Below, one piece after another: positions 5,327 through 23,617 of a stretch of 33,428 bases of DNA. Below the pieces are notes generated by a model, which did not search any database, had not been told where the DNA came from, and was given only the letters and a program-made list of their open reading frames with translations. Source of the stretch: an uncultured Oscillospiraceae bacterium (GTDB taxonomy: Bacteria; Bacillota; Clostridia; Christensenellales; CAG-314); contig CAYYTD010000001.1 in the NCBI GenBank assembly GCA_964474475.1, forward strand, positions 1-33,428. The letters run 5' to 3'. The stretch's first letter is position 1; each line of letters opens with the position of its first letter. Position numbers and translations under genes: made by a program.

Positions 5327-5329
5327 TTC

Positions 5330-8173: not shown

Positions 8174-9376
8174 ATGAACATGCAGCAAGCAACCGCAATG
8201 GCACAAACCGTTCTCGATTTGTACGTGAAGGATACGGCAGACAAGGGTTTGGTTGTATACAACGTACTTAATGACAAGGACGAGCCTTCGGACGTAACGG
8301 ACTTTTGGTCCATGACCTCTCTTTTGGCGCTGGCAGTGCGTATGTCGGCGGCAAACGGCGGCAAGTACAAGGACGCCGTCGAAAGAGTAGTGGAGGCAAT
8401 GGAGTACTATCGCGGCTACCGCAAGGATAACCACGCGGGCGAAAACGGTGAAGGCAGGAACTTCAGCGTTTACGCCGTTCCCAGAGGCAAAGCCAAGGGG
8501 GAAGCCGACGTAATAGGCGAAAGGGGCGAGCTGTCCGTTTTCGATGACCAAATTTGGGTAGCGATAGAAATGGTCAACGCTTACAACCTTTACGGCGAAG
8601 ACAAATATTTGCAAATTGCCAAAGAGCTTACCGAGTATATTTATGAAGTAGGCAACGATCCTTACCTTGGTGGCATCTATTGGGGACAAGCTTACACAAC
8701 GCGACACGCTTGCAGCAATGCACCGTTCGTAAAACTTGCCGCACTAATGTACCAAGCCACGGGCGAAGAAAAGTATCTTTCTTGGGCAAAAGCCATTTAC
8801 GAATTTTGCTACACGACGTTGCGGGATGAAAATGACGATTTGTACGTCGACTTAATTGGCACCGTGTACCAAGAGGAGTCCAAGGATATTTGGCATGGTG
8901 GCAAGAGCGTACAAAACGGCAGCATAGACGACAAAAAGTACACTTACAACAGCGGAGCAATGATAAGCGGCGGTGCGTACCTTTACAAAATAACGGGAGA
9001 ATCGCGCTATCTTAACGAAGCAAAAGCAACGGCGCAAAGCTGTCGCAAACGTTTTGGCAATACCCAAATAAAAGAAGGATGCGTGGTGTATCCCGGCAGC
9101 GACGGCGGCACCACGTTCAGCTGGTTCAATTTAATAATGTTCAAGGGCTTTTATGATCTTTTTACGGTGGACGAGTCTTCGGCGCATTACCTTGAAGAAG
9201 TAAAAACGGTTGTCGATTACGACTACGCACACTACGAAAGGAACGGGTTTGTTCCCACCTCCGGCGCAATCGGTTGGACTAACGGCAGAAACTCCTTTAA
9301 TAATCGCATATTGATGGACCACGTTACCAATGCCGATGTAGCCTTGCTCGTAGAACAGTTCAGCTTGCAAAAATAA
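8174..9376 (+). CDS. Glycoside hydrolase family 76 paralogue with no signal peptide (probably intracellular)
   Basis: Same motifs as the upstream paralogue: SVFDDQIWVAIEMVNAYNLYGEDKYLQIA and KYTYNSGAMISGGAYLYKITGESRYLNEA. No hydrophobic N-terminus. ATG 8174 is 8 nt after GGAGG (8161-8165); the ORF track gives TTG 8168. Confidence 0.75.
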   Translation: MNMQQATAMAQTVLDLYVKDTADKGLVVYNVLNDKDEPSDVTDFWSMTSLLALAVRMSAANGGKYKDAVERVVEAMEYYRGYRKDNHAGENGEGRNFSVYAVPRGKAKGEADVIGERGELSVFDDQIWVAIEMVNAYNLYGEDKYLQIAKELTEYIYEVGNDPYLGGIYWGQAYTTRHACSNAPFVKLAALMYQATGEEKYLSWAKAIYEFCYTTLRDENDDLYVDLIGTVYQEESKDIWHGGKSVQNGSIDDKKYTYNSGAMISGGAYLYKITGESRYLNEAKATAQSCRKRFGNTQIKEGCVVYPGSDGGTTFSWFNLIMFKGFYDLFTVDESSAHYLEEVKTVVDYDYAHYERNGFVPTSGAIGWTNGRNSFNNRILMDHVTNADVALLVEQFSLQK

Positions 9377-9433
9377 GTATTAACTTGCGGTAGACCGCAT
9401 TAATAAATAAAAACAAAAAAAGGAGAAGTAAAG

Positions 9434-12400: not shown

Positions 12401-13204
12401 CTCGTTCCTAGAACCGTAGCCGTCTCCGCAGGAGCGCTTGACAAGGGATATGCAAACTACGTAGGCGTAACCGAGTTTGAAGCCAAGTTTGCCGAAGGCG
12501 TAACCGCAACGGACGTAAAATGGACCTACAAACTTAATGGCGAAGCAGGCGAAAAGGTCGGCGCAAAACTCGCTCTTGAAAACGGTGCTTACACCGAAGT
12601 TAAATTGTCCTTTACGGTTGGTGGCGAAACTTACACCTATCAATATCAAGACTTTAAGGTTTCGGCTCTCTCACTCAAGTCCTACACGGAAAAAGTTACC
12701 GTAACGGGCAGTACCGTTAGCGTTGACGACGGCGCAGGTTGGGGACAAAAGGATCAACTTGTAATCGAAAACGTACGCGCTCAAGAATTTGAACTCGTGT
12801 TCAACGCAGAGTACAAAGGAACGCCCGGCGGCGGATACCGCGTAATGTGCATCAACCTCTTTGGTGAAGCGATCAGACCGGTATTCGGTTATCAAAGAGA
12901 AGACCGTGCCGACAGAGCACAAATCGGTTTCGACAACAATGGTGAATGGACAGACATCAACAAGGCCGATGCGGAAGCAGATTACAACCACATCTTTGGA
13001 GAAGCAACCAAGTTCAGCCTCAAGCTTTCACAAGACGGCGAAGGCAAGTTCTGGATCACCTTCACGGTTTACCGTGCAGACGGCAGTGTTATTGCCCAAA
13101 AGACTTGCGACCACGCTGCATGGTACAGCTCCACTACGGAACTTCGTTTCACCTTCGAAAACATCGACCTCACTCTTGGCGGTTTTGAGGTTTACTACAA
13201 CTAA
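9434..13204 (+). CDS. Large surface lipoprotein (1256 aa): N-terminal Ig-like domain plus three tandem modules of FIVAR-like helical segment, Ig-like domain and jelly-roll/LamG-like beta-sandwich
   Basis: Lipobox GVVAAC-TPD. FIVAR-like segments include DYTSSSWSALQTALDTAKAALNQSGISQADVDAATAGVTSAISNLV and DYTTESWGKITAAKTQAESAATQEQVNAAAAAIDKAIAELV. Ig-like repeats: ATYSWKVDGKEVATTATLAFTPTEFKRYEIECTA vs VTYAWSVNGTAKGTGEEFKFTPESFGKVEITCQA vs VKWTYKLNGEAGEKVGAKLAL. Each is followed by a roughly 170-aa beta-rich block. Confidence 0.8.
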   Translation: MKRILTLVLVLAVMLGVVAACTPDPEPDPQPTMLTVTSAAEVSLELGQSYMLAYDTDGTVQVSVSGGSYDAESQKFTATEAGTYTITLTATAQGKKETVATVKVTFTVASANKTALGTAIESAGALVKTDYTSSSWSALQTALDTAKAALNQSGISQADVDAATAGVTSAISNLVSSLVKAEIGADNKSFTWMETTYAEADYDNFADIVAEISALNANAEMTVKSKYNPAISAILDKLVAKLKLAIKSELKNNATMIVESLVEYTLTAESEDGATYSWKVDGKEVATTATLAFTPTEFKRYEIECTATKGKSSNVKTHTVAFVKADYVVNGRFTDSISVANNVISVTGDLGWGDEEGKKVTLPDLRLSGNFTVYFDVTFTKTADPAVMALFLLKDNGERNDFWVAVLQHNNRLEVATRGDSDDFKPRYEMPAGTATLDKVIHVMMTRTIKDGKAYLYAYILDDDGKVIMTHDANGLYKDDADSLGTVQLGIQAEHAHFTVSNLAVGINDNLVNRKPVNESIAKLSGYVESDYTTESWGKITAAKTQAESAATQEQVNAAAAAIDKAIAELVPATFEKAEVSATGITYAGRTYGADDYTNYETVLAQVNELAKLTLRSKYNPEIVKVLATLQLKLNFSVSGIADGTNLIVKALTEYTLTASSETEGVTYAWSVNGTAKGTGEEFKFTPESFGKVEITCQASTASGAVASRVISVSFIESDVKTPIGDKVTIGDDGSFTTQTGIEWPYWEGRNVLYDDLIFNGSFSITMDLTYNGTSDGATVATIHLLNADTLSPSWGGDWAYVGYGCICLHENPVRLETCWSGTGKKQSSDGGFDSIATAMSGVADLLEQGDTFTVKLTCYRNAEKQLQLVYSLLNTKNGEWIEFNRNEWAGDMGGGFIVGINVEHIGLTAKNVRYELLDATGSYLAGSVKSRAVLSATLVKYQDVVASEYVNGAAFTAAYKAAWALMSNNSAIVDYDAAAQALETAAKALVPRTVAVSAGALDKGYANYVGVTEFEAKFAEGVTATDVKWTYKLNGEAGEKVGAKLALENGAYTEVKLSFTVGGETYTYQYQDFKVSALSLKSYTEKVTVTGSTVSVDDGAGWGQKDQLVIENVRAQEFELVFNAEYKGTPGGGYRVMCINLFGEAIRPVFGYQREDRADRAQIGFDNNGEWTDINKADAEADYNHIFGEATKFSLKLSQDGEGKFWITFTVYRADGSVIAQKTCDHAAWYSSTTELRFTFENIDLTLGGFEVYYN

Positions 13205-13320: not shown

Positions 13321-14238
13321 GTGAAATTCATGAAACCCCTCATGATTGCCTTTGCAATCATACTTTTGCCTTTGTTCGTGCTGTCCACCATGCAGCTGTT
13401 TGGCTGGACGTGGCCTACGGAATTTGCAGGCGCCAACGTAGTAATGACGGTGGTTTTGGCTGTTTTTACTGCGTTACTGGTAATTTCTGCTTTCGGGCAG
13501 AAGTTTAGAATACAAAAAATAGGCACTTATCTTCTCCACGCGGGATTCGTTTTGTTCCTTGCGGGGAGTTTGCTCTACGTAACTACGGGTACTTCTCTCA
13601 CAGTAGCCGTGCCTGTGGATAACACTAAGGCTTACAGCTATTTGGAAGATAGCAACGGCAACGTGGTAGAGCTTGGCTTTGCCTTTGGTCTTGACCAATT
13701 CAAGATTACTTATTACGACCCTGTTTACGACGTTTACCAAGTGGACGGGGAAAACACCAAGACGGTAATGACCGACGTGCAAGTGCAAAAGTCGGCAACC
13801 GGCGAATGGTACTATGATTTTGACAAATACGGCGCAATAACTCTCAACGAGTTACTTGACGGCGAAAGTATAGATACGATAAAACAAACGGTCACTTTAG
13901 GCGACGGAGTGGTTGCTTCCGTTAGGTTGTTAGTCAAGGAATACGTTGCCAACGTTACTTTTATTGACGAAAACGGCGGCGAAACGAGCCAAGAACTGTT
14001 GGTTAACCACACGTTGTACAAAAACGGATTCAAAATTTACCTCATGGGGTACGACGAAGTATCTTCGCGCGTTACCTTAATGTTCAAGAAGAATATCGGC
14101 GAACCTTTGTCTACGGCAGGGCTGATCGTCGTAATGGCAGGCACCCTCTTCCAATGCATCGTGTATCCTTTAATTGTTAACAGGAAAAGCAAAAATGCCT
14201 TGCCCGCATCCGAAAAGGACGAGGAGGGCAAGATATGA
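13321..14238 (+). CDS. ccsB: Compact ResB/CcsB (Ccs1)-like cytochrome c biogenesis protein (System II)
   Basis: 305 aa. N-terminal TM helices include a His-containing helix (IGTYLLHAGFVLFLAGSLL), then an extracytoplasmic domain, then VNHTLYKNGFKIYLMGYD (compare the ResB consensus VNHPL..G...YQ.sY) and a C-terminal TM. The stop overlaps the ccsA start (ATGA at 14235-14238). GTG start 5 nt after AGAGG. Confidence 0.65.
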   Translation: MKFMKPLMIAFAIILLPLFVLSTMQLFGWTWPTEFAGANVVMTVVLAVFTALLVISAFGQKFRIQKIGTYLLHAGFVLFLAGSLLYVTTGTSLTVAVPVDNTKAYSYLEDSNGNVVELGFAFGLDQFKITYYDPVYDVYQVDGENTKTVMTDVQVQKSATGEWYYDFDKYGAITLNELLDGESIDTIKQTVTLGDGVVASVRLLVKEYVANVTFIDENGGETSQELLVNHTLYKNGFKIYLMGYDEVSSRVTLMFKKNIGEPLSTAGLIVVMAGTLFQCIVYPLIVNRKSKNALPASEKDEEGKI

Positions 14239-14993
14239 GTTGGTTGAAAATAGTAATGGTTGCCTCGGCACTGTTCCTTTTTGCGGCAACTGCGTTGTTC
14301 GTTAAGAAACGCACCTACGCCAAGTACGTGGCGGCAATCGGCTTTGTTTTGAACGGAGTAGTCGTTGCGGTAAACTGGATTTCTAACGGCTATGTTCCCT
14401 TCATCAGCATGTATCAAGTGCTGGCGTTCGTGGGTGTTTGTTTCCCCCTTGCGTATTTGCTAATTCACTTCGTGCGCGAAACCAAAGTGAATTTTGCTTG
14501 GTTTACCCTTTGCGCAGGCGTGTGCATGGTCGGTTCGGCAGCGATGTTCAGCACCATGATTTGGCATCGGGCACCCGCCTTGCAGTCACCTTTCTTTATT
14601 CCTCACATACTTTGTTACATTTTGTCCTACTCTTTGTGCGCCGTCGCTTTCGTGCAGACGATAGTGATGATGTTCCAAAAGAAAGAGGAAGACAAGGCAG
14701 AAACGGAAAAATCCATCTACGCCATAGTGATAACGGCATTTCCATTTATGGTAATGGGTATGTTTCTCGGCGCCATTTGGGCAAACGAATGCTGGGGCAA
14801 TTACTGGTCGTGGGATCCCAAAGAAAACTGGGCGCTCATCACCACTTGCTTGTACGCATTCTATTTCCACGTAAGAAAACGCAAATTTTTCAAAAAATGG
14901 CTTGTTCCCGTTTTAATAATCGCTTTCGTAAGCCTAATTATTACATTTATCGGTGTCAATGCGGTAGAAGGCGCATTGCACTCCTATTCATGA
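14235..14993 (+). CDS. ccsA: Cytochrome c assembly protein CcsA/ResC (haem-handling, System II)
   Basis: Polytopic membrane protein with the tryptophan-rich WWD motif WANECWGNYWSWDPKENWALIT (nt 14778-14831). Flanking conserved-looking histidines occur in FFIPHILCY and FYFHVRK. Confidence 0.85.
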   Translation: MSWLKIVMVASALFLFAATALFVKKRTYAKYVAAIGFVLNGVVVAVNWISNGYVPFISMYQVLAFVGVCFPLAYLLIHFVRETKVNFAWFTLCAGVCMVGSAAMFSTMIWHRAPALQSPFFIPHILCYILSYSLCAVAFVQTIVMMFQKKEEDKAETEKSIYAIVITAFPFMVMGMFLGAIWANECWGNYWSWDPKENWALITTCLYAFYFHVRKRKFFKKWLVPVLIIAFVSLIITFIGVNAVEGALHSYS

Positions 14994-15012
14994 ATATTTA
15001 ATGGAGGTATTT

Positions 15013-17259
15013 ATGGAAAAGAAACTTATCAAAAAGCTCCTAATAGGCACCTGTTGCCTGCTGTTTGTTCTTGCTTGCGGTTTTGCACTAACCGCTTGCG
15101 ACAAAGAGGAGCTCAACTTTGAGTCGGTTAGTGTGTATCACACGGCCGAACAGTACGTTTCTCCGTCGGGCATTGCTCGCAAGGGAGAGTCGACTTTCGT
15201 TTCCGATGCTACGCTCAACAAGGTTTACAAGCTCAACGAAGAGGGCACCGTTCTTAGGTCCTATTCGTTTGACCAAACGGTCAACTCCGTTTACGTAAAC
15301 GGCGACAACGTTTACGCGCTTGTAGGCGAACTTGCAGGGGAAATTTACCGCTTCGACGGATCCCTTAATCTCCTGTCTAAGGCAGAAGTAGAGCACACCC
15401 CAACGGATGCACTCGTCCTTGACGGCAAGATTTACGTGGTGAACAGATTTTCGGCGTCGATATCTATTCTTTCCGAAGACTTGACAACTAACGTAGAAAA
15501 GATTGACCTATCCGACGGCAGAGAGCCCATGGCAATTGCAACGGCACAAAACAAAATATTCGTTGCTTGTCATCTTCCTAGCGGCAAAGCTACCGACGCA
15601 ACCGTATCTGCCGATTTGTTCGTGATCAATCCCGAAACGGCAAAGGTTACCAAGAAAATAGAGTTGCTCAACGGAACGGGCGGACTCAAAGACATGGCAG
15701 TATCGTCCGACGGCAAATACGTTTACACAACCAATTTGTTCGCAAGATACGCCTACCCCACGTCGCAACTCGATCGCGGATGGATTAACACCAACGGCAT
15801 TACCGTGGTGGATGCCACAGCCGAAGAGGTGTACGCAGGAGTGTTGCTCGACAGCGTTGAACGCGGAGCATCCAACCCGTGGGGAATTGACGTAATAGGC
15901 GAAGGCAAAAATGCCAAAGTCGTTTGCGCCATCAGCGGTCTTGGCGAAATCTCCGTCATCGACGAATCGGCAATGTTTGCCAAGCTGCAACGCGTAGAAA
16001 AGGGCGAGTTTGACTACGGCTTGGATGCAGTAGTGGATCGCGTTGAATTTTCTTCGGATATCAGCCAGCGCATTTCCGTTGGCGGCAACGGACTTAGAGA
16101 AGTTTTGCTTGCCGACGAATACGGAACGGAATATGCCTACCTTACCCAGTATTTTGACGGAACTATTACCAAAATCGCTCTCGAAACGGACGAAGTAGGT
16201 GAGCGCGAAAAGGCCGTTTACATGATCGGTTCGCAAGGAACCCCCACTAAGGAAAGAATAGGCGAAATTCTTTGGTACGACGGCAATTACTGTTATCAAG
16301 CGTGGGAGTCCTGTGCAAGCTGCCACCCCGATGCAAGAGCCGACGGATTAAACTGGGATAACCTCAACGACGGTCTTGGCAACCCCAAGCAGGCAAAGTC
16401 GATGATGTATTCACATCGTACCCCTCCCGAAATGGTCACCGGCGCGCGTGAAACTGCCGAGCTTGCCGTGCGCAAGGGAATGCAGTTCATTCAGTTCAAC
16501 ACCATGGAAGAAGAGCTTCTTGAGTGCATCGACGATTATCTCAAGTCGCTTGCGCCCACGCAAAGTCCTTACCTCAACAGAGATGGCACGCTTACTGCCT
16601 CGGCAGAGCGCGGCAAGGAATTGTTCAGTCAGTTCAATTGCGCATCTTGCCACACCGGTCCATATTACACCGACCTTCAAATGCATCAATCCTCCTCTCT
16701 CGACCTTGACGACACGTGGGAAGACAGAGCTTTCGACACACCCACTCTCGTTGAAATTTGGAGAACGGCACCATACGTATTCAACGGAAGTTGTGCAACG
16801 ATGGAAGATGCTGTAAGGTATTTCGTAGAAAAATCCGGCAAAACCATTACCGACGAACAAGTAACGGACCTTGCTAACTACATACTTTCCATCGGCGACG
16901 AAGGGGAATATTACGGCGTTCAACAGGTATTTTTCGATAGAAACGACGACTCCGGCGAACTTGCCGTTCAATTGCTCGTTCCGGGAAGAACCATGAACAA
17001 GGTGACGATACGCAAGCAGCATGATACCGACAAGAATGCGTACGTTTGCATCAAGCTTTACGATGCAAGCGGCAAGCAAATCGGTGAAAGCGTCAACGCC
17101 GTTCTCACGGGAATGGTAAAGGGCGATTACGCCATGTTTGAGTGCGATCTCGATGTGCCTGCGGATCTTGCCAAAGGAAGTTATTACGAAATTACAATCG
17201 TAAATGCAGACGACACGGGTGAAGCGTTAGCAACGCCGCTCCGCGTGTATTATAATTAA
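15013..17259 (+). CDS. Lipoprotein: N-terminal YVTN/lactonase-type beta-propeller fused to a di-haem cytochrome c peroxidase/MauG-family domain
   Basis: Lipobox GFALTAC-DK. Propeller-like repeats include KIYVVNRFSASISIL, KIFVACHLPS and DGKYVYTTNLF. Two CXXCH motifs: WESCASCHPDARADG (nt 16312-16326) and FNCASCHTGPYYTD (nt 16639-16653). CCP signature: AFDTPTLVEIWRTAPYVFNGSCATMEDAV. ATG 15013 is 5 nt after GGAGG; the ORF track gives 15001. Confidence 0.8.
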   Translation: MEKKLIKKLLIGTCCLLFVLACGFALTACDKEELNFESVSVYHTAEQYVSPSGIARKGESTFVSDATLNKVYKLNEEGTVLRSYSFDQTVNSVYVNGDNVYALVGELAGEIYRFDGSLNLLSKAEVEHTPTDALVLDGKIYVVNRFSASISILSEDLTTNVEKIDLSDGREPMAIATAQNKIFVACHLPSGKATDATVSADLFVINPETAKVTKKIELLNGTGGLKDMAVSSDGKYVYTTNLFARYAYPTSQLDRGWINTNGITVVDATAEEVYAGVLLDSVERGASNPWGIDVIGEGKNAKVVCAISGLGEISVIDESAMFAKLQRVEKGEFDYGLDAVVDRVEFSSDISQRISVGGNGLREVLLADEYGTEYAYLTQYFDGTITKIALETDEVGEREKAVYMIGSQGTPTKERIGEILWYDGNYCYQAWESCASCHPDARADGLNWDNLNDGLGNPKQAKSMMYSHRTPPEMVTGARETAELAVRKGMQFIQFNTMEEELLECIDDYLKSLAPTQSPYLNRDGTLTASAERGKELFSQFNCASCHTGPYYTDLQMHQSSSLDLDDTWEDRAFDTPTLVEIWRTAPYVFNGSCATMEDAVRYFVEKSGKTITDEQVTDLANYILSIGDEGEYYGVQQVFFDRNDDSGELAVQLLVPGRTMNKVTIRKQHDTDKNAYVCIKLYDASGKQIGESVNAVLTGMVKGDYAMFECDLDVPADLAKGSYYEITIVNADDTGEALATPLRVYYN

Positions 17260-17271: not shown

Positions 17272-20200
17272 ATGAAGGATATGAAAAAACGTACCGTAGC
17301 GGTTATCGCTTTTGCAACTTTATTGATTATTTGCCTTACGTTTGTGGGTTGCAACGACAACGGCCCCGTTAAGGGATACGAACCGTCTACGTTAACCAAC
17401 AACACGACGACCATCAAGACTACCTCTGCCGAGCAAACGCAGTACTATGGTTCTCTTGAAAACGTAATCGAAGGATATGCCTCCGAGTACGTAATTACGC
17501 GTCACAAACCAATGGCAGGTACCTTTTACGCCTACACCGAAGGCATCACCGACGACCTTGCCGGACTTCACGGCGGCGAAGGCAACGAAGCCGTCTTTTG
17601 GCCGGGCTCTCAACTGCTCAAGTTGAAGCTGTCTTATGACCTTGACGGAAATCTTCAAAAGGAAGAAGAACTGCTGGTAGATTCTCCCAACGGAGTAGTG
17701 CGCGATCCGGACGTTTCCGCCGATGGCAAAAGAGTGGTGTTCAGCTGGAAACAAAACAAACAAGACGACTACCACCTTTACATTTACTTTTTAGAAACGG
17801 GCCTTGTTGAGCAAATCACCTTTGGTCAAGGCATCAGTGATACCGAACCCAAGTGGTTGCCCAACGGTCAAATAGTCTTTTCCTCGTCCAGAACGGTACA
17901 AATAGTAGACTGCTGGAAAACCCCCGTATCCAACCTGTATATTTGCAATGCAGACGGTTCGGAAATGATCCGCGTAGGATACGACCAAGTTCACACAACC
18001 TACCCCACCGTTACGGAAGATGGCAGAGTGCTTTACACTCGTTGGGACTACAACGACAGAACGCAAATGTTCGTTCAAGCGCTTTTCTCAATGAATGCCG
18101 ACGGCACCGGACAAACGGCAGTATTCGGAAACAACAGTAACAACCCTACTACGGTAATGCACACCGTTGCCGTTCCCGGTTCGTCCAGTAAGTACCTTAC
18201 CATCGTTTCCGGTCACCACGTAACACAAGGCGGCAAACTTGCCGTTATCGATACCGCAATCGATCGTGACGGACAATCTCCCCTCGATTACGTATTCGAA
18301 GCTGCCGAATCGGGCGAAAGTATCGACACTCTCGGTCAAGCAGGCAGAATTTACAAGTACCCCATTGCAATTAACGAAAATGAAATGATTTTCGCCAGAG
18401 CGGAGTCTTGGGCAAGTGCCAAGCAAGAAACCAAGTTCAGCTTGTATTATTACAATTCCGAAACGGGCGAAATGATTTGCATTGCCGATTGTAACGGTGG
18501 CAAAATTTCCTGTTCGCAAATTGCACCCATTCGCACCAAACGCACATTCGTTCGCCCCAGCATGGTCGATTACTCCAAGGATACCGGCACCTATTACGTT
18601 GCAAACGTTTACGAAGGCGACACCATGAAGGAAGTTGAATTCGGTGCAGTCAAGTATCTCCGCGTAGTTGCGTTGGATTACAGACCTTACGCCGTTGGTG
18701 CGGTTTCGGCAGGAAACAGCTCGGCTTATCCCGACGGTTTTGGTACTTCCGACCCGTCAACACCCGTAGGAACGGCAAACTCCACGTGGGACGTAAAGAA
18801 GGTTATCGGCATCGTGCCTGTCGAAGAAGACGGCTCCGTAATGTTCAGTTGCCCGTCGGACGTTCCCGTGTACTTCCAGCTCCTAGATGAAAACGGATTG
18901 ATGATTCAGTCCATGAGAAGTTGGTCCACCCTCATGCCGGGCGAAACTTTCTCCTGCGTGGGATGTCACGAAAGCAAAAACAACGTTCCCGTTAGCGGCA
19001 GCATGGTTACGATGGCAATGAAGAAGGGCGTCCAAAAGCTTCAAAAAGACATTTGGATGACCACTGAAGAGTACGAAAATTACGATCCTTACACCGATTA
19101 CAAAGGATTTAGCTACGCCGACGAAATTCAGCCCATTCTTGACAGAAGTTGTGTGTCGTGTCATACTAACGTAGAATTGGCAAATAAGCGTCTTGGCAGC
19201 CAAGGCATTTCGGTAGATATAGGCAAAACGGTTACTTCTTCCACGTGGAAGTATCTTGTAACTACAAAGAGTAACGACGTTTCTTGGACGAGTTCCGCCT
19301 TCAATCCCGATTGGTCAACGGCAACGCAACCCTTTGGTAGCGATTCAGGCAGTTCCATCACGTGGGGTGCAAGTTCCGATGCTTGCTTCTACATGACGCA
19401 ACAATTTACCCTCACGGCTGACCAGCTCAAAGGCAAGTTCTTTATCAAGTGGCAGTACGACGAAGATCCTCAACTCTATCTCAACGGTACGAGAATCGAT
19501 TCCGTTCCTGTCAACGGCACCTACATTACAGGCACAACCTATTTTGAACTTTCCGCATCGCAAAAAGCACTTCTCAACGAAGGTACCAACACGATTACCG
19601 CGCGTGCTTACAACGCTATGGGCGGTTCGTATATGTACGTAGAGTTAACCTGCAACACTGAGGTTGCTTCCACAACCACAAGCCCTGTTGCACTTACGGA
19701 CGAAATTAGGGTAGCAAGCCGCGACAAGGTAGATTACTATCTGTCCTACCTCGTGCTTACAGGTTCTTTCCTCAAGGGTAACTTCTATTGCGGGACTCCC
19801 ACTAACGACATCACCGATTGGATCGGCGGCATGAGCGATCCTACGACCATTCCTGCGTATACTCATGGTTCAACCCAAAGCGGAATCATCGAAATGCTCA
19901 TGAACGACCATCAAGGACTTCTTTCTTCGGGCAAGATCAGCAAGGAAGACATCTACCGCATTGCAGCATGGATCGATCTCGGCGTTCCTTACAGAGGAAG
20001 CTACAACGAAGCTTCGGAAAACTGGGGTTCGTTGGAAATGGGTGAAGCCGAAAGACGCCAAAACATGCGCGACTATTACAACAAGATCGACGAGTTGAAC
20101 AAGGCAAAAAAAGCAGGCCAACTCAGCAGAAAAAAGGTGCTCATCGAGTACTTTGATGCAAGTGGCAACTATATCGGCGCAGTAGAAGATAGACACCTTT

Positions 20201-20949
20201 CCATTCTCTATCTCGATCAAAAAATTCAAGCGGGCGACACCGTCGTCGTAACCCTTCCCAGTGGCTACGAATACGTGTGGTTTAGCCTCAGTCCCAAAAT
20301 GAAGCTGGCACTCATGTACTGTCCGGACGGCGTGTTCACTTACACGGTTCCCCAGTATGCCGAAAATATCTTCCCCAACCTTACCGTAGGAAAGGATCAA
20401 TACGTTTACACCCATCCCACGATTACCGCCTTCCTTCCTAGCGAAGAAGACTTGAATGCAATTTACAACGTAGCACTCAATCCGTACGACGCAGGCTACA
20501 AAAACGAAGGAGCCAAGATAACCACAGGCAGCGCTTGGGAAAACGACGGTTACGGCAACTTCTTCCCTGCAAACGCATTTGACGGATTCACCTGCAACCG
20601 CGGCCACGGTGTATTCCCCAACCAAAGCTGGGGACCGGACAAGAACGTAGGCAATGAAGATAGATGGCTGCAAATCGACTTCGGTAGAGAAGTAGAGCTT
20701 TACTCCTTTGAAATGTTCATTCGTGCAGACTTCCCGCACGATGCTTACATCACCAAGCTGGAACTTGAATTTTCCGACGGGACGATAATAGAGTGGACTG
20801 ACCTCAAGCAAACGAATCAAGGTCAAATCCTCGTCCTCGAAGAAGCCATCAAAACTACTTTCGTAAAGATTAAAAATATCGAAACTTCCAAGGACGATTG
20901 GTTCGGAATTTCCGAGTTTATGGCTTACGGCAAAAACGTTATCAAGTAA
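17272..20949 (+). CDS. Lipoprotein (1225 aa): PD40/TolB-like beta-propeller, HzsA-like di-haem c module, galactose-binding-like beta-sandwich and C-terminal F5/8 type C (discoidin)-like domain
   Basis: Lipobox LTFVGC-NDN. PD40-like repeats: DVSADGKRVVFSW, PKWLPNGQIVFSSSR, PTVTEDGRVLYTRWDY. CXXCH motifs: PGETFSCVGCHESKN (nt 18955-18969) and DRSCVSCHTN (nt 19150-19164). Beta-sandwich pattern: FFIKWQYDEDPQLYLNGTRI. Discoidin-like: NEDRWLQIDFGREVELYSFEMFIRADF. RBS AAGGAGGG. Confidence 0.75.
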   Translation: MKDMKKRTVAVIAFATLLIICLTFVGCNDNGPVKGYEPSTLTNNTTTIKTTSAEQTQYYGSLENVIEGYASEYVITRHKPMAGTFYAYTEGITDDLAGLHGGEGNEAVFWPGSQLLKLKLSYDLDGNLQKEEELLVDSPNGVVRDPDVSADGKRVVFSWKQNKQDDYHLYIYFLETGLVEQITFGQGISDTEPKWLPNGQIVFSSSRTVQIVDCWKTPVSNLYICNADGSEMIRVGYDQVHTTYPTVTEDGRVLYTRWDYNDRTQMFVQALFSMNADGTGQTAVFGNNSNNPTTVMHTVAVPGSSSKYLTIVSGHHVTQGGKLAVIDTAIDRDGQSPLDYVFEAAESGESIDTLGQAGRIYKYPIAINENEMIFARAESWASAKQETKFSLYYYNSETGEMICIADCNGGKISCSQIAPIRTKRTFVRPSMVDYSKDTGTYYVANVYEGDTMKEVEFGAVKYLRVVALDYRPYAVGAVSAGNSSAYPDGFGTSDPSTPVGTANSTWDVKKVIGIVPVEEDGSVMFSCPSDVPVYFQLLDENGLMIQSMRSWSTLMPGETFSCVGCHESKNNVPVSGSMVTMAMKKGVQKLQKDIWMTTEEYENYDPYTDYKGFSYADEIQPILDRSCVSCHTNVELANKRLGSQGISVDIGKTVTSSTWKYLVTTKSNDVSWTSSAFNPDWSTATQPFGSDSGSSITWGASSDACFYMTQQFTLTADQLKGKFFIKWQYDEDPQLYLNGTRIDSVPVNGTYITGTTYFELSASQKALLNEGTNTITARAYNAMGGSYMYVELTCNTEVASTTTSPVALTDEIRVASRDKVDYYLSYLVLTGSFLKGNFYCGTPTNDITDWIGGMSDPTTIPAYTHGSTQSGIIEMLMNDHQGLLSSGKISKEDIYRIAAWIDLGVPYRGSYNEASENWGSLEMGEAERRQNMRDYYNKIDELNKAKKAGQLSRKKVLIEYFDASGNYIGAVEDRHLSILYLDQKIQAGDTVVVTLPSGYEYVWFSLSPKMKLALMYCPDGVFTYTVPQYAENIFPNLTVGKDQYVYTHPTITAFLPSEEDLNAIYNVALNPYDAGYKNEGAKITTGSAWENDGYGNFFPANAFDGFTCNRGHGVFPNQSWGPDKNVGNEDRWLQIDFGREVELYSFEMFIRADFPHDAYITKLELEFSDGTIIEWTDLKQTNQGQILVLEEAIKTTFVKIKNIETSKDDWFGISEFMAYGKNVIK

Positions 20950-20970: not shown

Positions 20971-22659
20971 ATGAAGAAAACACTCGCTTTAATTCTTTTG
21001 TCGGTGTTGGCGTTAACGTTGGTTGCTTTTGCAGCTTGTGAAAAGGAACCGCCCGCACCCGTAAAGCCCACCGTGGGCACAGTAAGTGGCGTTGTAACCG
21101 ATTCTGCCGGCGATCCGCTTGAAGAAGCAGAAGTTTACTATTCCGAAGATTCTTCCGTTGAAACAAACGAGAACGGCAAATTCAGCATCAAAAACGTAAC
21201 CGTTGGCGATCTTACTTTGAAGGTAACACTCAAAGGCTACGCCACGAAAACGGTCAACGTAAACTACGACAGTTTCGACGACGAAGGCAACTGCAACTTG
21301 ACCATCGCCCTGGAAGATGGCGTAGGCACCATTAAGGGTACCGTCAGCGTAGACGGACTTACTTCCAAAAAGCTCCAAGGCGTTACCGTCTCTCTCGGTA
21401 GTTCGCAAGTGACGACGGACAAGGACGGCAAGTACGAAATTACCAACGTTTCCATGCACGGAACCAAAACCCTTACGGCAGTCGTCGACGGCTACGGTCA
21501 GTCGCGCAAAACCGTAACCGTTCGTTCCTTCGACGTAAACGGCGTTGCAACGGTCAACTTCCAACTCGTTCAAAACGACCTTGCCGAGTTGCCGGGCATC
21601 AAACCCAGCCAGCTTGAAGCGCTCGAAATTATTCCCGCAAGCAAAACGCAACTCAGCCTTTCCGACCTGAAAAATCTCAATCGCAGCCCGGACGGACTTG
21701 CAGGCACTTCCAAGGTTGAAGATCACGGCGAAGGTCTTTGCGTTAATGCCGATACCAAGAGTGACAATTCCAATATGGTTGCCTTCATTTACGGCAAAAT
21801 TAAAATTGACGACAACCACAAGTTCCTTACCTCTTACGTAAGAATTTTCTTCGGACAAAACGGCGGCAAGGATCACGATGCAGAAGCCGCAGGCGACTTT
21901 TCAACTGCAAAGCTTGCCGAGCTTGGCGTGTACATCATCAACGAACAAGGTGAAGTCGTCACAGACGTTGCTACCTTCCAAAAGGTAACCACCGAAGGTT
22001 TCATGCCCGTAACGTTCGATCTTTCCGCTTTTAGCGGACAAACGGTAACCTTCATTCTCGGCACCAAGACGGGATATCACTGCTGCTTTGACAGAGTAGA
22101 ATTTGCTGCCGCAGCTCCCAGATATCTTACCGTTAGCGGAGTGGACGGACTTACCAGCATTATGCTTCACAGCAAAGTGACGGATACTTCCTTCGATGCT
22201 GCAGCGCTCAAAGAAAAATGGGCTATCAGCGGTGGCGTAGGCATGGTGAGTGAAGGCATACAACTTAACGGCGCCGATCCTTGGAAGGCTGAAGATTTCG
22301 ATGCAGCCAATCCTCAGCCTGTAAACTCCTATATGTACTTAACTACGGATATTACCGCACAAAACAGTCAAATGTCAATTGCGGCAACCATCGTTAACCT
22401 TAAAGAGTGCACAGACCCCGCTTCTGCCGATCCCAACCATCACTTCTTCCCGTGGGTTTCCGTAATAGTGCTTGACAGTAACGGCAATGTTCTCAAGCAA
22501 ACGGACTGGACCAAGGTTGAAGTTGCCGAAAACAACGCCGAGTTCAATTTGGATTGCGATCTTTCCTCTTGCGTAGGGCAAGACGTCACCGTCGTTATTG
22601 CCTGCAATGTAGGTTATCGTGCAACCATCACGGGCGTAACTTTTGACGCAGCACAGTAA
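20971..22659 (+). CDS. Lipoprotein with two carboxypeptidase-regulatory-like (CarboxypepD_reg) domains and two related C-terminal beta-sandwich modules
   Basis: Lipobox LVAFAAC-EKE. CarboxypepD_reg-like segments: GTVSGVVTDSAGDPLEEAEVYYSEDSSVETNENGKFSIKNVTVGDLTLKVTLKGY and GTIKGTVSVDG...VTTDKDGKYEITNVSMHGTKTLTAVVDGY. C-terminal duplication: VTFDLSAFSGQTVTFILGTKTGYHCCFDRVEF vs FNLDCDLSSCVGQDVTVVIACNVGYRATITGVTF. Confidence 0.7.
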   Translation: MKKTLALILLSVLALTLVAFAACEKEPPAPVKPTVGTVSGVVTDSAGDPLEEAEVYYSEDSSVETNENGKFSIKNVTVGDLTLKVTLKGYATKTVNVNYDSFDDEGNCNLTIALEDGVGTIKGTVSVDGLTSKKLQGVTVSLGSSQVTTDKDGKYEITNVSMHGTKTLTAVVDGYGQSRKTVTVRSFDVNGVATVNFQLVQNDLAELPGIKPSQLEALEIIPASKTQLSLSDLKNLNRSPDGLAGTSKVEDHGEGLCVNADTKSDNSNMVAFIYGKIKIDDNHKFLTSYVRIFFGQNGGKDHDAEAAGDFSTAKLAELGVYIINEQGEVVTDVATFQKVTTEGFMPVTFDLSAFSGQTVTFILGTKTGYHCCFDRVEFAAAAPRYLTVSGVDGLTSIMLHSKVTDTSFDAAALKEKWAISGGVGMVSEGIQLNGADPWKAEDFDAANPQPVNSYMYLTTDITAQNSQMSIAATIVNLKECTDPASADPNHHFFPWVSVIVLDSNGNVLKQTDWTKVEVAENNAEFNLDCDLSSCVGQDVTVVIACNVGYRATITGVTFDAAQ

Positions 22660-22726: not shown

Positions 22727-23617
22727 ATGAAACCATCACAAAAAAGCAAACCGTTTGATAGAAAAGACGTATTTTTCCGCACGTTTAAGGAGCATTACGG
22801 CGTTTTGCTCGGCGTAAGCTTGGCAATGTTTGTATTTGCTCTGCCCGTAGTTGCGGTTTATTTCGGCGCGTATATCGAGTTGTCTCTTTTGGGAGAAATC
22901 ACGTTGGAAAACGCAGTGGAAATGTATTCCATACAAACGCAAATGTATATTTGGCTCATTCCTGCCTTTGCCATTTTTTCGGTGGGCGCAGCGGGTGCGT
23001 TTTACGTCATTCGCCGGCTGGTTTGGGATCAGCCAGTTTTGTTCTTTAGGGATTTCTTCCGCGGAATAAAGGCAAATTGGTTACAAAGCTTAATTAGCGG
23101 AGTAATTTTCATTCTTTTTATGGGAGCGCTCAATTACGCAATGAACATGCTCGTCCTCAACGTAGAGTTGGGCTCCGCCTATTGGACGTTGTACGTGGTG
23201 CAAATATTCTTGGCGGTAGTTGCGGCAATGCTGTTGCTGTTTCAGTATGCCGCCATCGCCGTTTACAACGACAACGTATTCAAAATTATCAAGAACAGCT
23301 TTGCTTTCCTTTGGGCGACCTTCCCCCGAAGCATCGGCATCGTACTGTTGGCATTTGCGCCCGTATTTGTTTTGCTTGCTTTTGCTAGTGTGTACATCAT
23401 CTACATCATCGTGTTGATATTCCTTGCGCTGGTGGGCTTTGCTTACGGCATACTCGTCTTCACCCTTCACGCGCATTACGTGTTCGACAAGTACGTCAAC
23501 AAGCAGTCTTTCCCCGACGTGTACAAAAAGGGGCTTTACCACGAAGGAACGACGGTCGGTAGCGAAACGGAATCTTCCGTCCCCGCCACCGAGGGCTACA
23601 ACATCGACGTTGAATAG
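22727..23617 (+). CDS. YesL/DUF624-family integral membrane protein
   Basis: About 6 TM segments. The N-terminal FFRTFKEHYGVLLGVSL and FFRDFFRGIKANW motifs are typical of DUF624 proteins, which accompany Gram-positive sugar ABC loci. The RBS is weak. Confidence 0.7.
   Translation: MKPSQKSKPFDRKDVFFRTFKEHYGVLLGVSLAMFVFALPVVAVYFGAYIELSLLGEITLENAVEMYSIQTQMYIWLIPAFAIFSVGAAGAFYVIRRLVWDQPVLFFRDFFRGIKANWLQSLISGVIFILFMGALNYAMNMLVLNVELGSAYWTLYVVQIFLAVVAAMLLLFQYAAIAVYNDNVFKIIKNSFAFLWATFPRSIGIVLLAFAPVFVLLAFASVYIIYIIVLIFLALVGFAYGILVFTLHAHYVFDKYVNKQSFPDVYKKGLYHEGTTVGSETESSVPATEGYNIDVE

What the first reader, a model, noticed from the sequence alone, without database searches (positions are those of the whole stretch)
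17272..20949. HzsA-like (hydrazine-synthase-alpha-type) propeller plus di-haem architecture fused to carbohydrate-binding-type domains in a Firmicute lipoprotein
Seen in sequence: a lipobox, then several PD40/TolB-type propeller repeats, then PGETFSCVGCHE and SCVSCHT 65 aa apart. These are followed by a beta-sandwich with the W...YDEDP.LYLNG pattern of galactose-binding-like domains and a C-terminal discoidin-like domain (RWLQIDFGREVELYSFEMFI). Established knowledge: the anammox hydrazine synthase alpha subunit combines a six-bladed propeller, a middle domain and two c-type haems. Related proteins of unknown function, annotated as HzsA-related, are as far as I recall mostly from Planctomycetota/Verrucomicrobiota-like genomes. 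Inference: this is a member of that uncharacterised family recruited, possibly by horizontal transfer, to a Gram-positive cell surface and equipped with glycan-binding modules. That would point to a glycan-directed redox enzyme rather than nitrogen metabolism.
Basis: partly seen in the sequence, partly recalled or inferred. Interest (0 to 1): 0.7.

Follow-up and report, generated by a model that had tools for sequence, protein, structure and literature searches.

The report
Hydrazine-synthase-like haem enzyme in gut Clostridia
The gene is real, but it is only half of the story: with the gene just upstream it encodes a complete hydrazine-synthase-like four-haem enzyme that carries sugar-binding domains, comes with its own cytochrome c assembly genes, and is widespread in uncultured gut Clostridia, where its chemistry is unknown.

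Summary
ORF 17272-20949 encodes a 1225-aa lipoprotein made of:
- a six-bladed propeller;
- an HZS_alpha middle domain (Pfam E 6.5e-33);
- two CXXCH motifs 65 residues apart;
- a galactose-binding-like beta-sandwich inserted in the second haem domain;
- a C-terminal discoidin domain.

Kuenenia HzsA is its best solved-structure match (Foldseek E 1.8e-21).

The upstream gene (15001-17259) is a fused HzsB+HzsC homologue. Upstream of that lie ResB- and CcsA-like cytochrome c maturation genes. This four-gene cassette recurs in every fetched Clostridial locus that keeps upstream sequence (81 of 81 have the beta-gamma gene).

The family is large. A scan of species-representative genomes gave 229 matching stretches; the best 80 are all uncultured gut Clostridia. 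Some alpha proteins carry dockerins. In three divergent lineages, including this window, the cassette adjoins an alpha-mannan locus (GH76, GH125).

It is not a hydrazine synthase. Equivalog scores fall far below cut-off, and the Tyr ligand of haem alpha-I, gamma-Cys165 and gamma-His144 are absent.

The closest relatives of the alpha core (42-49% identity) come from Planctomycetota, Lentisphaerota and Sumerlaeota. The Clostridial sequences form one clade, and nothing points to recent transfer.

The most likely function, by inference only, is a surface, glycan-targeted, oxidant-driven haem oxidoreductase.

The parts
13321..14238 (+). ResB/CcsB-like cytochrome c biogenesis protein. It is short (305 aa) with 4 predicted TM segments.
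   Evidence: Pfam ResB E 2.6e-16. TM prediction. Homologue found next to the cassette in 67 fetched loci.
14235..14993 (+). CcsA/ResC-like haem-handling membrane protein with WWD motif WGNYWSWD (aa 187-194).
   Evidence: Pfam Cytochrom_C_asm E 1.6e-33. TIGR03144 ccsB E 4e-42, below the equivalog cut-off. Motif. Found in 69 fetched loci.
15001..17259 (+). Fused HzsB+HzsC-like lipoprotein (752 aa; lipobox Cys33). It has a seven-bladed YVTN-type propeller (aa ~43-408), a CCP/MauG-type di-haem domain (aa ~415-632) and a C-terminal beta-sandwich.
   Evidence: Best PDB sequence hits are 5c2v_C HzsC (3.6e-13) and 5c2v_B HzsB (2.4e-9). NCBIfam hydrazine_BC scores 66.8 bits against a cut-off of 1250. 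Model pLDDT 83.4. Foldseek top hit 5c2v_B, E 1.5e-18, TM 0.84. Lies directly upstream of alpha in 81 of 81 loci with upstream sequence.
16312..16326 (+). First CXXCH of beta-gamma (C438-A-S-C441-H442), the counterpart of haem gamma-I. A nearly invariant extra Cys431 lies 7 residues upstream.
16639..16653 (+). Second CXXCH of beta-gamma (C547-A-S-C550-H551), the counterpart of haem gamma-II.
17272..20949 (+). HzsA-like alpha subunit, a 1225-aa lipoprotein (the finding). An AAGGAGG ribosome-binding site lies upstream, and the gene starts 12 nt after the beta-gamma stop codon.
17272..17352 (+). Signal peptide and lipobox (LTFVG-C27). The tether that follows is modelled with low confidence.
   Evidence: Sequence. 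pLDDT <50 for model residues 1-29, which are protein residues 26-54. Lipobox conserved in close relatives.
17608..18675 (+). Six-bladed TolB/PD40-type beta-propeller (aa ~113-468). Residues also conserved in non-Clostridial relatives include R144, D145, E192, C214, D238, Q239, R257, W258, Y260, D262, R263 and H316.
18643..18972 (+). HZS_alpha middle domain (aa 458-567), ending in the haem alpha-I motif.
   Evidence: Pfam PF18582 E 6.5e-33. Aligns to HzsA residues 496-562.
18955..18969 (+). CXXCH 1 (C562-V-G-C565-H566), followed by ESKNN. There is no Tyr at the position of HzsA Tyr591.
19150..19164 (+). CXXCH 2 (C627-V-S-C630-H631), the start of the haem alpha-II cytochrome c domain. His880 (nt 19909-19911) is invariant in the 25-sequence alignment and nearly invariant in the 52-sequence one. 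It is a candidate distal ligand.
19234..19671 (+). Galactose-binding-like (GH2-N type) beta-sandwich inserted inside the haem alpha-II domain (aa ~655-800). Homologues have one to three tandem copies.
20548..20916 (+). C-terminal discoidin / F5_F8_type_C (CBM32-like, DUF7402-like) domain. R1151, H1156 and D1157 are invariant.
   Evidence: Pfam E 9.3e-11. Foldseek hit to discoidin 5y4m, TM 0.70. Invariant columns.
20971..22659 (+). Lipoprotein with two CarboxypepD_reg domains. It is a lineage-specific neighbour, present only in close relatives.
22727..23617 (+). Seven-TM membrane protein with weak MusI/YesL-like similarity, also a lineage-specific neighbour. A terminator-like hairpin at 23661-23700 probably ends the transcription unit.
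17..13204 (+). Co-oriented Gram-positive-type alpha-mannan utilisation locus. In order: LacI-type regulator fragment, GH125, sugar ABC transporter (SBP plus two permeases), 486-aa unknown, two GH76, and a 1256-aa PKD/FIVAR surface protein.
   Evidence: The same association appears in the divergent loci L087 and L018.

Best explanation
Shown:
- The finding is the alpha subunit of a Clostridial hydrazine-synthase-like enzyme.
- The conserved cassette ResB-like, CcsA-like, fused beta-gamma, alpha supplies both cytochromes and the system II machinery that attaches haem outside the membrane.
- Together the two cytochromes carry four c-type haem motifs.

Inferred, probability about 0.8: alpha and beta-gamma form one four-haem complex, as in HZS.

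Inferred, probability about 0.85: the enzyme does not make hydrazine. The special haem alpha-I ligation and the gamma-subunit residues of HZS are missing.

Inferred, probability about 0.6: the enzyme works on, or at, glycan-rich material. In this organism that material is probably fungal alpha-mannan, because:
- both proteins here are lipid-anchored on the cell surface;
- alpha has two conserved sugar-binding-type domains built into it;
- relatives add dockerins, Big_2, FIVAR or ricin modules;
- the cassette sits at the tail of the mannan locus.

Inferred, probability about 0.3: mechanism. These fermenters show no membrane electron feed to the cassette, so the redox loop most simply closes outside the cell. 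A small oxidant reacts at the CCP-type haem of beta-gamma. H2O2 is the usual substrate of this fold; O2 or NO are alternatives. Oxidising equivalents, or a small reactive intermediate, then pass to haem alpha-I at the base of the alpha propeller. There a glycan-borne or glycan-associated substrate is oxidised.
For: Identity as HZS-like:
- Pfam HZS_alpha E 6.5e-33.
- HzsA is the best PDB sequence hit, and both haem regions align.
- Foldseek: 5c2v_A at E 1.8e-21 over 701 columns, against TolB at 1e-10.
- The upstream protein's best PDB hits are HzsC and HzsB. NCBIfam hydrazine_BC is its top hit. Foldseek finds HzsB with TM 0.84.

Cassette:
- The beta-gamma gene lies directly upstream of alpha in all 81 fetched Clostridial loci with upstream sequence. 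CcsA is present in 69 and ResB in 67.
- This holds at 39-50% identity and in unrelated surroundings.
- The CcsA-like protein has a WWD motif, and alpha and beta-gamma are the only CXXCH proteins in the window.

Surface location: lipoboxes.

Glycan link:
- A GH2-N-like insert and a discoidin domain are both conserved across the family.
- Dockerin_1 occurs in 17 of the 120 closest relatives, with Big_2, FIVAR and ricin in others.
- GH76/GH125 mannan loci adjoin the cassette in three lineages whose alpha proteins share only 41-44% identity with this one.
- An AraC/cupin regulator lies upstream of ResB in 26 loci.

Shared active-site chemistry: the propeller and haem residues are essentially identical in the Clostridial and PVC/Sumerlaeota groups.

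Oxidant-driven idea: beta-gamma matches CCP_MauG, MbnH, MauG and RoxA-like profiles. All characterised members of this fold other than HzsC use H2O2 or O2 (established knowledge, not tested here).
Against: - No activity, expression or complex data exist.
- Outside three lineages the neighbourhoods are heterogeneous, with no consistent CAZyme partner beyond AraC regulators.
- Sugar-binding-type domains and dockerins could serve only to retain the enzyme on the cell surface.
- The Trp that mediates inter-haem electron transfer in CCP/MauG is not evident in beta-gamma. The first-haem region is modelled with low confidence (pLDDT <50 for aa 447-480).
- PVC relatives of alpha stand alone in the two loci examined, so alpha may not strictly need beta-gamma.
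- H2O2 availability for strict gut anaerobes is limited.
Confidence: 0.5

Rival explanations
1. Nitrogen-oxide enzyme. Like HZS, the complex converts small N species (NO, nitrite, hydroxylamine, perhaps with ammonium) at the cell surface, for example to detoxify host- or diet-derived NO or hydroxylamine. The sugar-binding domains only hold it in place.
For: The only characterised homologue is hydrazine synthase. The overall two-subunit, four-haem layout is kept. Dockerins and CBM-like domains are also used in Clostridia purely for surface attachment (established knowledge).
Against: HZS-specific residues are missing. There is no Tyr after CXXCH-1. Gamma-Cys165 aligns to Arg, and gamma-His144 falls in a 10-residue gap. 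Equivalog scores are 62 against 800 bits and 67 against 1250 bits. No HAO/HDH-type multihaem partner is present in the window. Two sugar-binding-type domains are invariant core parts of the family. The cassette is embedded in a mannan locus in three lineages.
Confidence: 0.12
2. Extracellular terminal reductase or electron-transfer module. The cell feeds electrons to the haems, for example through flavin-based extracellular electron transfer, and the complex reduces an external acceptor.
For: These are surface-anchored c-type cytochromes in a Gram-positive bacterium with private maturation genes. Bis-His type haem motifs could relay electrons.
Against: The cassette and the conserved neighbours contain no quinol dehydrogenase, EetAB/Ndh2/PplA-like or other membrane redox gene. 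There are only two haems per protein, and large propellers and conserved polar pockets suggest catalysis rather than a wire.
Confidence: 0.13
3. Maturase plus quinohaemoprotein. The MauG-like beta-gamma protein oxidises residues of alpha to build a protein-derived cofactor, possibly involving the conserved Cys214, Trp258 and Tyr260. Alpha then acts as a dehydrogenase on sugars or amines.
For: Beta-gamma hits MauG, MbnH and His-Xaa-Ser-associated MauG-like profiles. Cys, Trp and Tyr in the alpha propeller are conserved across phyla. Gene pairing is strict.
Against: HZS itself has no such cofactor. PVC alpha homologues with the same conserved residues lack an adjacent beta-gamma gene. The MauG-type Trp is not evident. 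This reading is entirely speculative.
Confidence: 0.08
4. Non-catalytic surface protein: a TolB-like propeller adhesin that happens to contain CXXCH motifs.
For: TolB is the second-best structural match. The protein has adhesin-like accessory domains.
Against: The CXXCH motifs are conserved across phyla. The HZS_alpha domain is highly significant. Dedicated haem-attachment genes accompany the pair.
Confidence: 0.03

Closest known systems
Anammox hydrazine synthase HZS alpha-beta-gamma (Kuenenia stuttgartiensis, PDB 5c2v; Scalindua has a fused beta-gamma)
   Same: Alpha has a six-bladed propeller, a middle domain and two c-haems. The partner has a seven-bladed propeller plus a CCP-like di-haem domain, fused as in Scalindua. 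The gene order is beta-gamma then alpha. HZS is the best PDB match for both proteins.
   Different: - Only about 16-17% identity in the structural alignments.
- Equivalog scores are far below cut-off.
- No Tyr591-type ligand, no gamma-Cys165 and no gamma-His144.
- A sugar-binding-type sandwich is inserted in the haem alpha-II domain, and a roughly 420-aa C-terminal extension ends in a discoidin domain.
- It is a lipoprotein on the surface of a Clostridial fermenter, not an anammoxosome enzyme.
- No HDH/HAO partners are present in the window.
Non-anammox HZS homologue gene pairs, clades I-IV of Hagglund et al. 2025 (PMC12758564), in Planctomycetota, Desulfobacterota, Acidobacteriota and Verrucomicrobiota
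   Same: Co-located alpha and fused beta-gamma homologues keep the haem motifs but lack the HZS catalytic residues. Their function is unknown.
   Different: - That paper does not mention Clostridia or carbohydrate loci.
- Here the order is beta-gamma then alpha. Clades I-III have alpha first.
- There is no FG-GAP/CRTAC1 neighbour.
- Beta-gamma has no extra c554-type haems. It carries only two CXXCH motifs.
- The cassette carries its own ResB/CcsA genes.
- Alpha has integral GH2-N-like and discoidin domains, and dockerins in some members.
- Placement relative to clades I-IV was not tested.
Stand-alone HZS_alpha/discoidin proteins of gut and environmental Thermoguttaceae, Planctomycetaceae, Oligosphaeraceae and Sumerlaeota
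   Same: They share 42-49% identity over the 590-aa core, both CXXCH motifs and 60 shared conserved core residues. Many carry discoidin/DUF7402 domains.
   Different: In the two loci examined there is no adjacent beta-gamma gene and no Ccs genes. The extra domains are N-terminal. They fall outside the Clostridial clade in a neighbour-joining tree.
Bacterial di-haem cytochrome c peroxidase / MauG / MbnH / RoxA family
   Same: The C-terminal half of beta-gamma has the two-CXXCH CCP fold and hits these profiles. RoxA is a precedent for a secreted CCP-type enzyme that attacks a polymer (established knowledge).
   Different: The domain is fused to a propeller and paired with a second di-haem protein. 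The conserved inter-haem Trp is not evident. The scores are marginal (CCP_MauG 27.4 bits against a cut-off of 25.6).

Membership tests
Anammox hydrazine synthase (functional HZS) | Alpha fold: six-bladed propeller, middle domain and two c-type haem motifs | tested here: met
   Pfam HZS_alpha E 6.5e-33. Foldseek 5c2v_A E 1.8e-21 over 701 columns. The model shows six blades.
Anammox hydrazine synthase (functional HZS) | Beta (seven-bladed propeller) and gamma (di-haem CCP-like) partner encoded next to alpha | tested here: met
   ORF 15001-17259: PDB hits HzsC 3.6e-13 and HzsB 2.4e-9. Foldseek 5c2v_B TM 0.84.
Anammox hydrazine synthase (functional HZS) | Scores above the NCBIfam equivalog cut-offs (NF052339 alpha, NF052342 beta-gamma) | tested here: not met
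   62.2 bits against 800, and 66.8 bits against 1250.
Anammox hydrazine synthase (functional HZS) | Haem alpha-I ligated by Tyr591, with the CXXCH His bound to zinc together with Cys303 | tested here: not met
   CVGCH is followed by ESKNN, where Kuenenia has CSGCHYG(SY). No Tyr is present within five residues. No Cys lies near the position expected for Cys303; this last point is an index estimate and therefore an inference.
Anammox hydrazine synthase (functional HZS) | Gamma-Cys165 third covalent haem link, and gamma-His144 | tested here: not met
   In the phmmer alignment, Cys165 aligns to Arg and His144 lies in a 10-residue gap of the window protein. The alignment around the gap is uncertain.
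Anammox hydrazine synthase (functional HZS) | Pathway partners (hydrazine dehydrogenase and HAO-like octahaem proteins) | tested here: not met
   No other CXXCH-containing ORF exists in the 33-kb window. The rest of the genome could not be tested.
Pfam PF18582 HZS_alpha domain-containing proteins | Domain score above the gathering threshold | tested here: met
   113.6 bits against 26.6.
Non-anammox HZS-homologue gene pairs (Hagglund et al. 2025) | Co-located alpha and fused beta-gamma homologues that lack the HZS key residues | tested here: met
   Definition from PMC12758564.
Non-anammox HZS-homologue gene pairs (Hagglund et al. 2025) | Phylogenetic placement within clades I-IV; FG-GAP/CRTAC1 neighbour (clades I-III); extra c554 haems on beta-gamma (clade I) | tested here: not met
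   No FG-GAP gene in the window. Beta-gamma has only two CXXCH motifs.
Di-haem cytochrome c peroxidase / MauG family (PF03150) | Two CXXCH motifs in a CCP fold, with the conserved inter-haem Trp | tested here: inconclusive
   CCP_MauG 27.4 bits against 25.6. Two CXXCH motifs are present. No Trp is evident at the FWDGR-equivalent position. That region of the model has pLDDT <50.
System II cytochrome c biogenesis (CcsBA / ResBC) | ResB-like protein plus CcsA with the WWD haem-handling motif | tested here: met
   Pfam ResB E 2.6e-16 and Cytochrom_C_asm E 1.6e-33. WGNYWSWD motif. TIGR03144 scores 144.6 bits, below the equivalog cut-off of 187.6. The ResB-like protein is unusually short.
F5/8 type C (discoidin, CBM32-like) domain | Domain score above the gathering threshold; carbohydrate binding | tested here: met
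   42.4 bits against 28.2. Foldseek discoidin 5y4m TM 0.70. Actual sugar binding cannot be tested with these tools.
TolB (Tol-Pal system) | Equivalog score and TolB N-terminal domain | tested here: not met
   TIGR02800 scores 53.6 bits against 343. The similarity is confined to the propeller.

The most novel reading that the evidence does not exclude
Strictly anaerobic gut Clostridia, including cellulosome-bearing ones with dockerin-tagged versions, use a c-type-haem, hydrazine-synthase-derived two-site enzyme to carry out oxidative chemistry on polysaccharides or cell-wall polymers. The oxidant would be peroxide or another small molecule. This would be an anaerobe's counterpart of LPMO/CDH-type oxidative glycan attack, and an enzyme class not yet described.
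Probability: 0.15. Interest if true: 0.9.

Novelty: new variant of a known kind. Interest (0 to 1): 0.68.

Why it matters
Hydrazine synthase was long regarded as unique to anammox bacteria. Distant homologues were reported only in late 2025, from a few Planctomycetota and Desulfobacterota. This locus adds several things:
- A large, conserved, complete HZS-like module exists in uncultured gut Clostridia. To my knowledge, not tested here, c-type cytochromes are unusual in such fermenters.
- The module brings its own haem-attachment genes.
- It is displayed on the cell surface and is decorated like a carbohydrate-active enzyme.
- In some lineages it is embedded in fungal-mannan utilisation loci.

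This offers a tractable route to the ancestral, non-hydrazine chemistry of the HZS fold, because a self-contained four-gene cassette is suited to heterologous expression. It may also reveal redox chemistry in anaerobic glycan degradation or in surface oxidant handling in the gut.

Tried and rejected
- Pfam on the inserted sandwich alone and on aa 800-1100 gave nothing significant. The insert was identified only with a profile of homologous copies. The region aa ~920-1090 remains unassigned; the model shows a long helix plus a beta-sandwich.
- A survey of about 230 neighbour ORFs from about 50 loci, using the alignment trick with Pfam, showed no consistent CAZyme partner. The recurring neighbours are AraC regulators, some Metallophos and CarboxypepD_reg proteins, Gfo/Idh/MocA with xylose-isomerase-type barrels in one sub-lineage, and scattered GH43, GH76, GH127, GH25, GH3 and GH18. 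I therefore rejected the claim that the cassette is generally part of a polysaccharide locus.
- BLAST of the Oligosphaeraceae Metallophos neighbour against the Clostridial neighbours found nothing.
- Eight literature searches found no description of the Clostridial family or of cytochromes in GH76/GH125 loci. The terms included hydrazine synthase with polysaccharide utilisation or Clostridia, HZS_alpha, PF18582, hydrazine synthase-like, dockerin with c-type cytochrome, and GH76 with GH125 and cytochrome.
- Model coordinates are not exposed to scripts. The haem pockets, a possible inter-subunit tunnel and the equivalence of Cys214 to HzsA Cys303 could therefore not be examined. By index offset, Cys214 is probably not the Cys303 equivalent.
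- Recent horizontal transfer was considered and rejected. GC content matches the flanks and the Clostridial clade is deep and monophyletic.
- The Rfam and tRNA scans of the window were empty.
- The third neighbour batch, the 'viral' fold library, the metagenome and viral contig scans and the last homologue search were not used.

Full report
**1. The observation**

- It starts with a signal peptide and lipobox (LTFVG-C27).
- It contains PGETFSCVGCHE (Cys562/565, His566) and SCVSCHT (Cys627/630, His631). The two motifs are 65 residues apart.
- It contains KWQYDEDPQLYLNG and ends with RWLQIDFGREVELYSFEMFI.

Pfam gives three relevant hits:
- the HZS_alpha middle domain at aa 458-567 (E 6.5e-33, 113.6 bits against a gathering score of 26.6);
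- F5_F8_type_C at aa 1093-1215 (E 9.3e-11);
- a weak PD40 hit.

Against PDB sequences the best hit is Kuenenia HzsA (5c2v_A, E 3.3e-10), and both haem-motif regions align. An AlphaFold2 model of aa 26-1225, built on 52 homologues, has mean pLDDT 83.9 and pTM 0.81. It shows 24 strands, which is six four-stranded blades. Foldseek against the PDB ranks HzsA first (E 1.8e-21, 701 aligned columns of 768). TolB propellers follow at E about 1e-10.

A profile of 14 homologous copies does find relatives:
- a GH78 rhamnosidase (3w5m, 3.4e-9);
- a sialate 9-O-acetylesterase (7kmm, 6.4e-9);
- several GH2 sugar-binding domains.

Some individual copies also hit Glyco_hydro_2_N.

**2.

The ORF immediately upstream (15001-17259, 752 aa, lipobox Cys33) ends 12 nt before the alpha start codon. 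Its best PDB sequence hits are the gamma subunit of HZS (5c2v_C, 3.6e-13, aa 419-554) and the beta subunit (5c2v_B, 2.4e-9, aa 221-393). Its best NCBIfam hit is the Scalindua-type beta-gamma fusion model. Its model (pLDDT 83.4) matches HzsB first (E 1.5e-18, TM 0.84 normalised to HzsB, rmsd 3.5 A). It carries two CXXCH motifs, at Cys438 and Cys547.

Upstream of it lie a short ResB-like gene (13321-14238) and a CcsA-like gene (14235-14993). The CcsA-like protein has the WWD motif WGNYWSWD. These two genes are the system II machinery that attaches haem to apocytochromes outside the membrane. No other ORF in the window has a CXXCH motif. The locus thus encodes a complete HZS-like alpha plus beta-gamma set together with its own maturation system.

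**3. The wider locus**

Everything from 812 to 23617 is on the + strand. In order:
- positions 17-13204 form a Gram-positive-type alpha-mannan utilisation locus: LacI-type regulator fragment, GH125, sugar-binding protein, two ABC permeases, a 486-aa unknown, two GH76, and a 1256-aa PKD/FIVAR surface protein;
- the four-gene cassette follows after a 116-nt gap in which the consensus scan found no terminator or promoter;
- a CarboxypepD_reg lipoprotein (20971-22659) and a seven-TM MusI/YesL-like protein (22727-23617) come next;
- a strong terminator-like hairpin lies at 23661-23700.

Housekeeping genes follow, including gltX, deoD, rpmH, rnpA, yidD, yidC and jag.

**4. How general it is**

A word-indexed search found at least 1900 relatives of alpha at E <= 1e-5. 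The 120 best share 39-99% identity. Nearly all are unnamed proteins from metagenomes or from MAGs labelled Clostridia, Lachnospiraceae, Oscillospiraceae or Eubacteriales. Both CXXCH motifs are present in 116 of the 120.

The sandwich insert and the C-terminal discoidin domain are conserved along the whole alignment, with invariant residues in each. They are core parts of the family. Homologues have one to three tandem copies of the insert. Beyond this core, 17 of the 120 carry Dockerin_1, and others carry Big_2, FIVAR, ricin or extra discoidin modules.

A scan of one genome per species found 229 stretches that encode a relative. The best 80 loci are all uncultured Clostridia from animal and human guts. 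Their labels include Christensenellaceae, Oscillospiraceae, Acutalibacteraceae, Ruminococcus, Lachnospiraceae, Howiella and Faecousia.

In every one of the 81 fetched Clostridial loci that keep upstream sequence, a beta-gamma homologue lies directly upstream of alpha. These 81 represent about 76 distinct places. The seven loci without a beta-gamma hit have less than 760 nt upstream. CcsA is found in 69 of the 81 and ResB in 67, usually in the order ResB, CcsA, beta-gamma, alpha. An AraC-type regulator with a cupin domain precedes ResB in 26 loci.

**5. Surroundings of the cassette elsewhere**

Outside the cassette the surroundings are diverse: housekeeping genes, GH3, GH18, GH25, GH43, GH127, Gfo/Idh/MocA with xylose-isomerase-type barrels, glycosyltransferases and others. 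The cassette therefore behaves as an autonomous module and is not generally part of a polysaccharide locus.

One association does recur. GH76/GH125 mannan genes adjoin the cassette in three lineages:
- the window's own lineage (L008, L010);
- L018, whose alpha shares 41% identity with this one;
- L087, whose alpha shares 44% identity. There the whole mannan locus (sugar-binding protein, two permeases, a homologue of the 486-aa unknown, GH125, GH76 and a regulator) lies downstream of the cassette instead of upstream.

**6. Relatives outside Clostridia and the transfer question**

An exhaustive search with the core (aa 60-650) against 1.84 billion cluster representatives found 8870 proteins at E <= 1e-3, 3173 at <= 1e-10 and 1072 at <= 1e-30. 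Below the Clostridial group lies a second large group with 42-49% core identity and a different architecture, in which extra domains are N-terminal. Named members come from Thermoguttaceae, Planctomycetaceae, Oligosphaeraceae and Sumerlaeota. Several fragments are annotated as discoidin-domain proteins.

These proteins keep both CXXCH motifs. Sixty core residues are conserved in both groups, at >=97% of Clostridial and >=90% of other sequences. They include Arg144, Asp145, Glu192, Cys214, Asp238, Gln239, Arg257, Trp258, Tyr260, Asp262, Arg263, His316, Met548, Arg549, Ser550, Trp551 and Glu558. Only three positions are Clostridia-specific. The alpha active site is therefore probably the same in both groups.

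In the two non-Clostridial loci examined, alpha stands alone, with neither beta-gamma nor Ccs genes nearby. In a midpoint-rooted neighbour-joining tree of 229 cores, all 121 known Clostridial sequences fall in one clade of 134 leaves. GC content across the cassette (0.48-0.50) matches the rest of the window. An ancient inter-phylum transfer is plausible but its direction is unknown. A recent transfer is not supported.

**7. Why it is not a hydrazine synthase**

- NCBIfam equivalog scores are 62 bits (cut-off 800) for alpha and 67 bits (cut-off 1250) for the beta-gamma fusion.
- In HzsA the haem alpha-I iron is bound by Tyr591, while the CXXCH histidine binds zinc (summarised in PMC12758564). 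Here CVGCH is followed by ESKNN, with no tyrosine.
- In the alignment to HzsC, the third covalent haem ligand Cys165 aligns to arginine. His144 lies in a 10-residue gap, although the alignment there is uncertain.
- No HAO/HDH-type multihaem gene is nearby.

The same pattern, a kept fold and kept haems with lost special residues, was reported for the Planctomycetota and Desulfobacterota homologues. That paper does not mention Clostridia or carbohydrate contexts. None of eight literature searches turned up a description of this family.

**8. How it most likely works**

Shown:
- two adjacent surface lipoproteins together carry four c-type haem motifs;
- their folds are those of HZS alpha and beta-gamma;
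- private maturation genes accompany them;
- gene pairing is strict;
- alpha has integral sugar-binding-type domains.

Inferred:
- The two proteins form one complex, as in HZS.
- The complex is positioned on glycan-rich material through the insert, the discoidin domain and, in relatives, dockerins and other modules.
- No membrane redox partner is encoded with the cassette. To my knowledge, not tested here, such fermenters generally lack respiratory c-type cytochrome chains. The simplest closed redox loop therefore lies outside the cell. A small oxidant is activated at the CCP-type haem of beta-gamma. H2O2 or O2 is the substrate of every characterised member of that fold other than HzsC. A substrate held at the alpha propeller and haem alpha-I is then oxidised.

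I put about 0.9 on the statement that this is an HZS-like module and not a hydrazine synthase. I put about 0.6 on glycan targeting and about 0.3 on the oxidant-driven oxidation mechanism.

Rivals:
- small-nitrogen-species chemistry, with the sugar-binding domains used only for anchoring;
- a cell-fed extracellular reductase;
- a MauG-like maturase acting on alpha;
- a non-catalytic adhesin.

**9. Verdict**

The finding is real and more interesting than stated. It is a new variant of the recently recognised non-anammox HZS-homologue pairs. It differs in four ways:
- it occurs in a new phylum;
- it has a new domain architecture;
- it forms a self-contained cassette that includes cytochrome c maturation genes;
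- it has surface display, with recurrent but not universal links to alpha-mannan utilisation.

Its chemistry is unknown and can be tested with a four-gene construct.

Noticed in passing
window 23660-23739 and 25151-25230: An 80-nt direct repeat (96% identical) begins with an 18-bp-stem terminator-like hairpin. The two copies bracket the TM1586-type nitroreductase gene (24438-25094). This suggests a duplicated terminator region or an inserted 1.5-kb segment.
   Followed up: partly
window 17-13204: A Gram-positive-type alpha-mannan utilisation locus: LacI fragment, GH125, ABC sugar transporter, a 486-aa protein with no family match, two GH76, and a 1256-aa PKD/FIVAR surface protein. A homologue of the 486-aa unknown also sits in the divergent mannan locus L087.
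   Followed up: partly
window 16291-16293 (beta-gamma Cys431): A nearly invariant extra cysteine lies seven residues before the first CXXCH of beta-gamma (C-Y-Q-x-W-E-S-C-A-S-C-H). It could be an additional haem link or ligand. HzsC has no cysteine at this position.
   Followed up: no
window 13321-14238; also L003, L087, L088: The ResB-like proteins of these cassettes are short (about 230-350 aa). From memory, typical ResB/CcsB proteins are about 500 aa or longer. The Pfam match covers only profile positions 142-278 of 486.
   Followed up: no
L001/L008 7517-9980: In one close relative (alpha 83% identical), beta-gamma is called as two genes of 434 aa (propeller) and 395 aa (di-haem). This is either a real split like the separate HzsB and HzsC of Kuenenia, or a frameshift in the MAG.
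   Followed up: no
L038, L042, L051, L054, L057, L058 (upstream of the cassette, opposite strand): In one sub-lineage, two Gfo/Idh/MocA oxidoreductases and two xylose-isomerase-type TIM-barrel proteins are divergently transcribed from the AraC-ResB-CcsA-beta-gamma-alpha cassette. This gene set resembles 3-keto-glycoside and C-glycoside cleavage pathways.
   Followed up: partly
L089 and L090: The Thermoguttaceae and Oligosphaeraceae relatives of alpha (42-49% core identity) stand alone, without beta-gamma or Ccs genes. The Oligosphaeraceae copy sits beside Metallophos, a weak fucosidase/GHL6-like protein and xylose-isomerase-type barrel genes.
   Followed up: partly
window 22677-22706: A perfect 12-bp-stem palindrome (GGTAAATGCGGC...GCCGCATTTACC) lies in the 67-nt gap between the CarboxypepD_reg lipoprotein gene and the membrane protein gene.
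   Followed up: no
window 29534-33412: The gene order deoD (minus strand), rpmH, rnpA, yidD, yidC, jag indicates an origin-proximal chromosomal region. The long ORFs 29456-30319 (+) and 30484-30963 (-) are probably spurious shadows of deoD and of rpmH/rnpA.
   Followed up: partly
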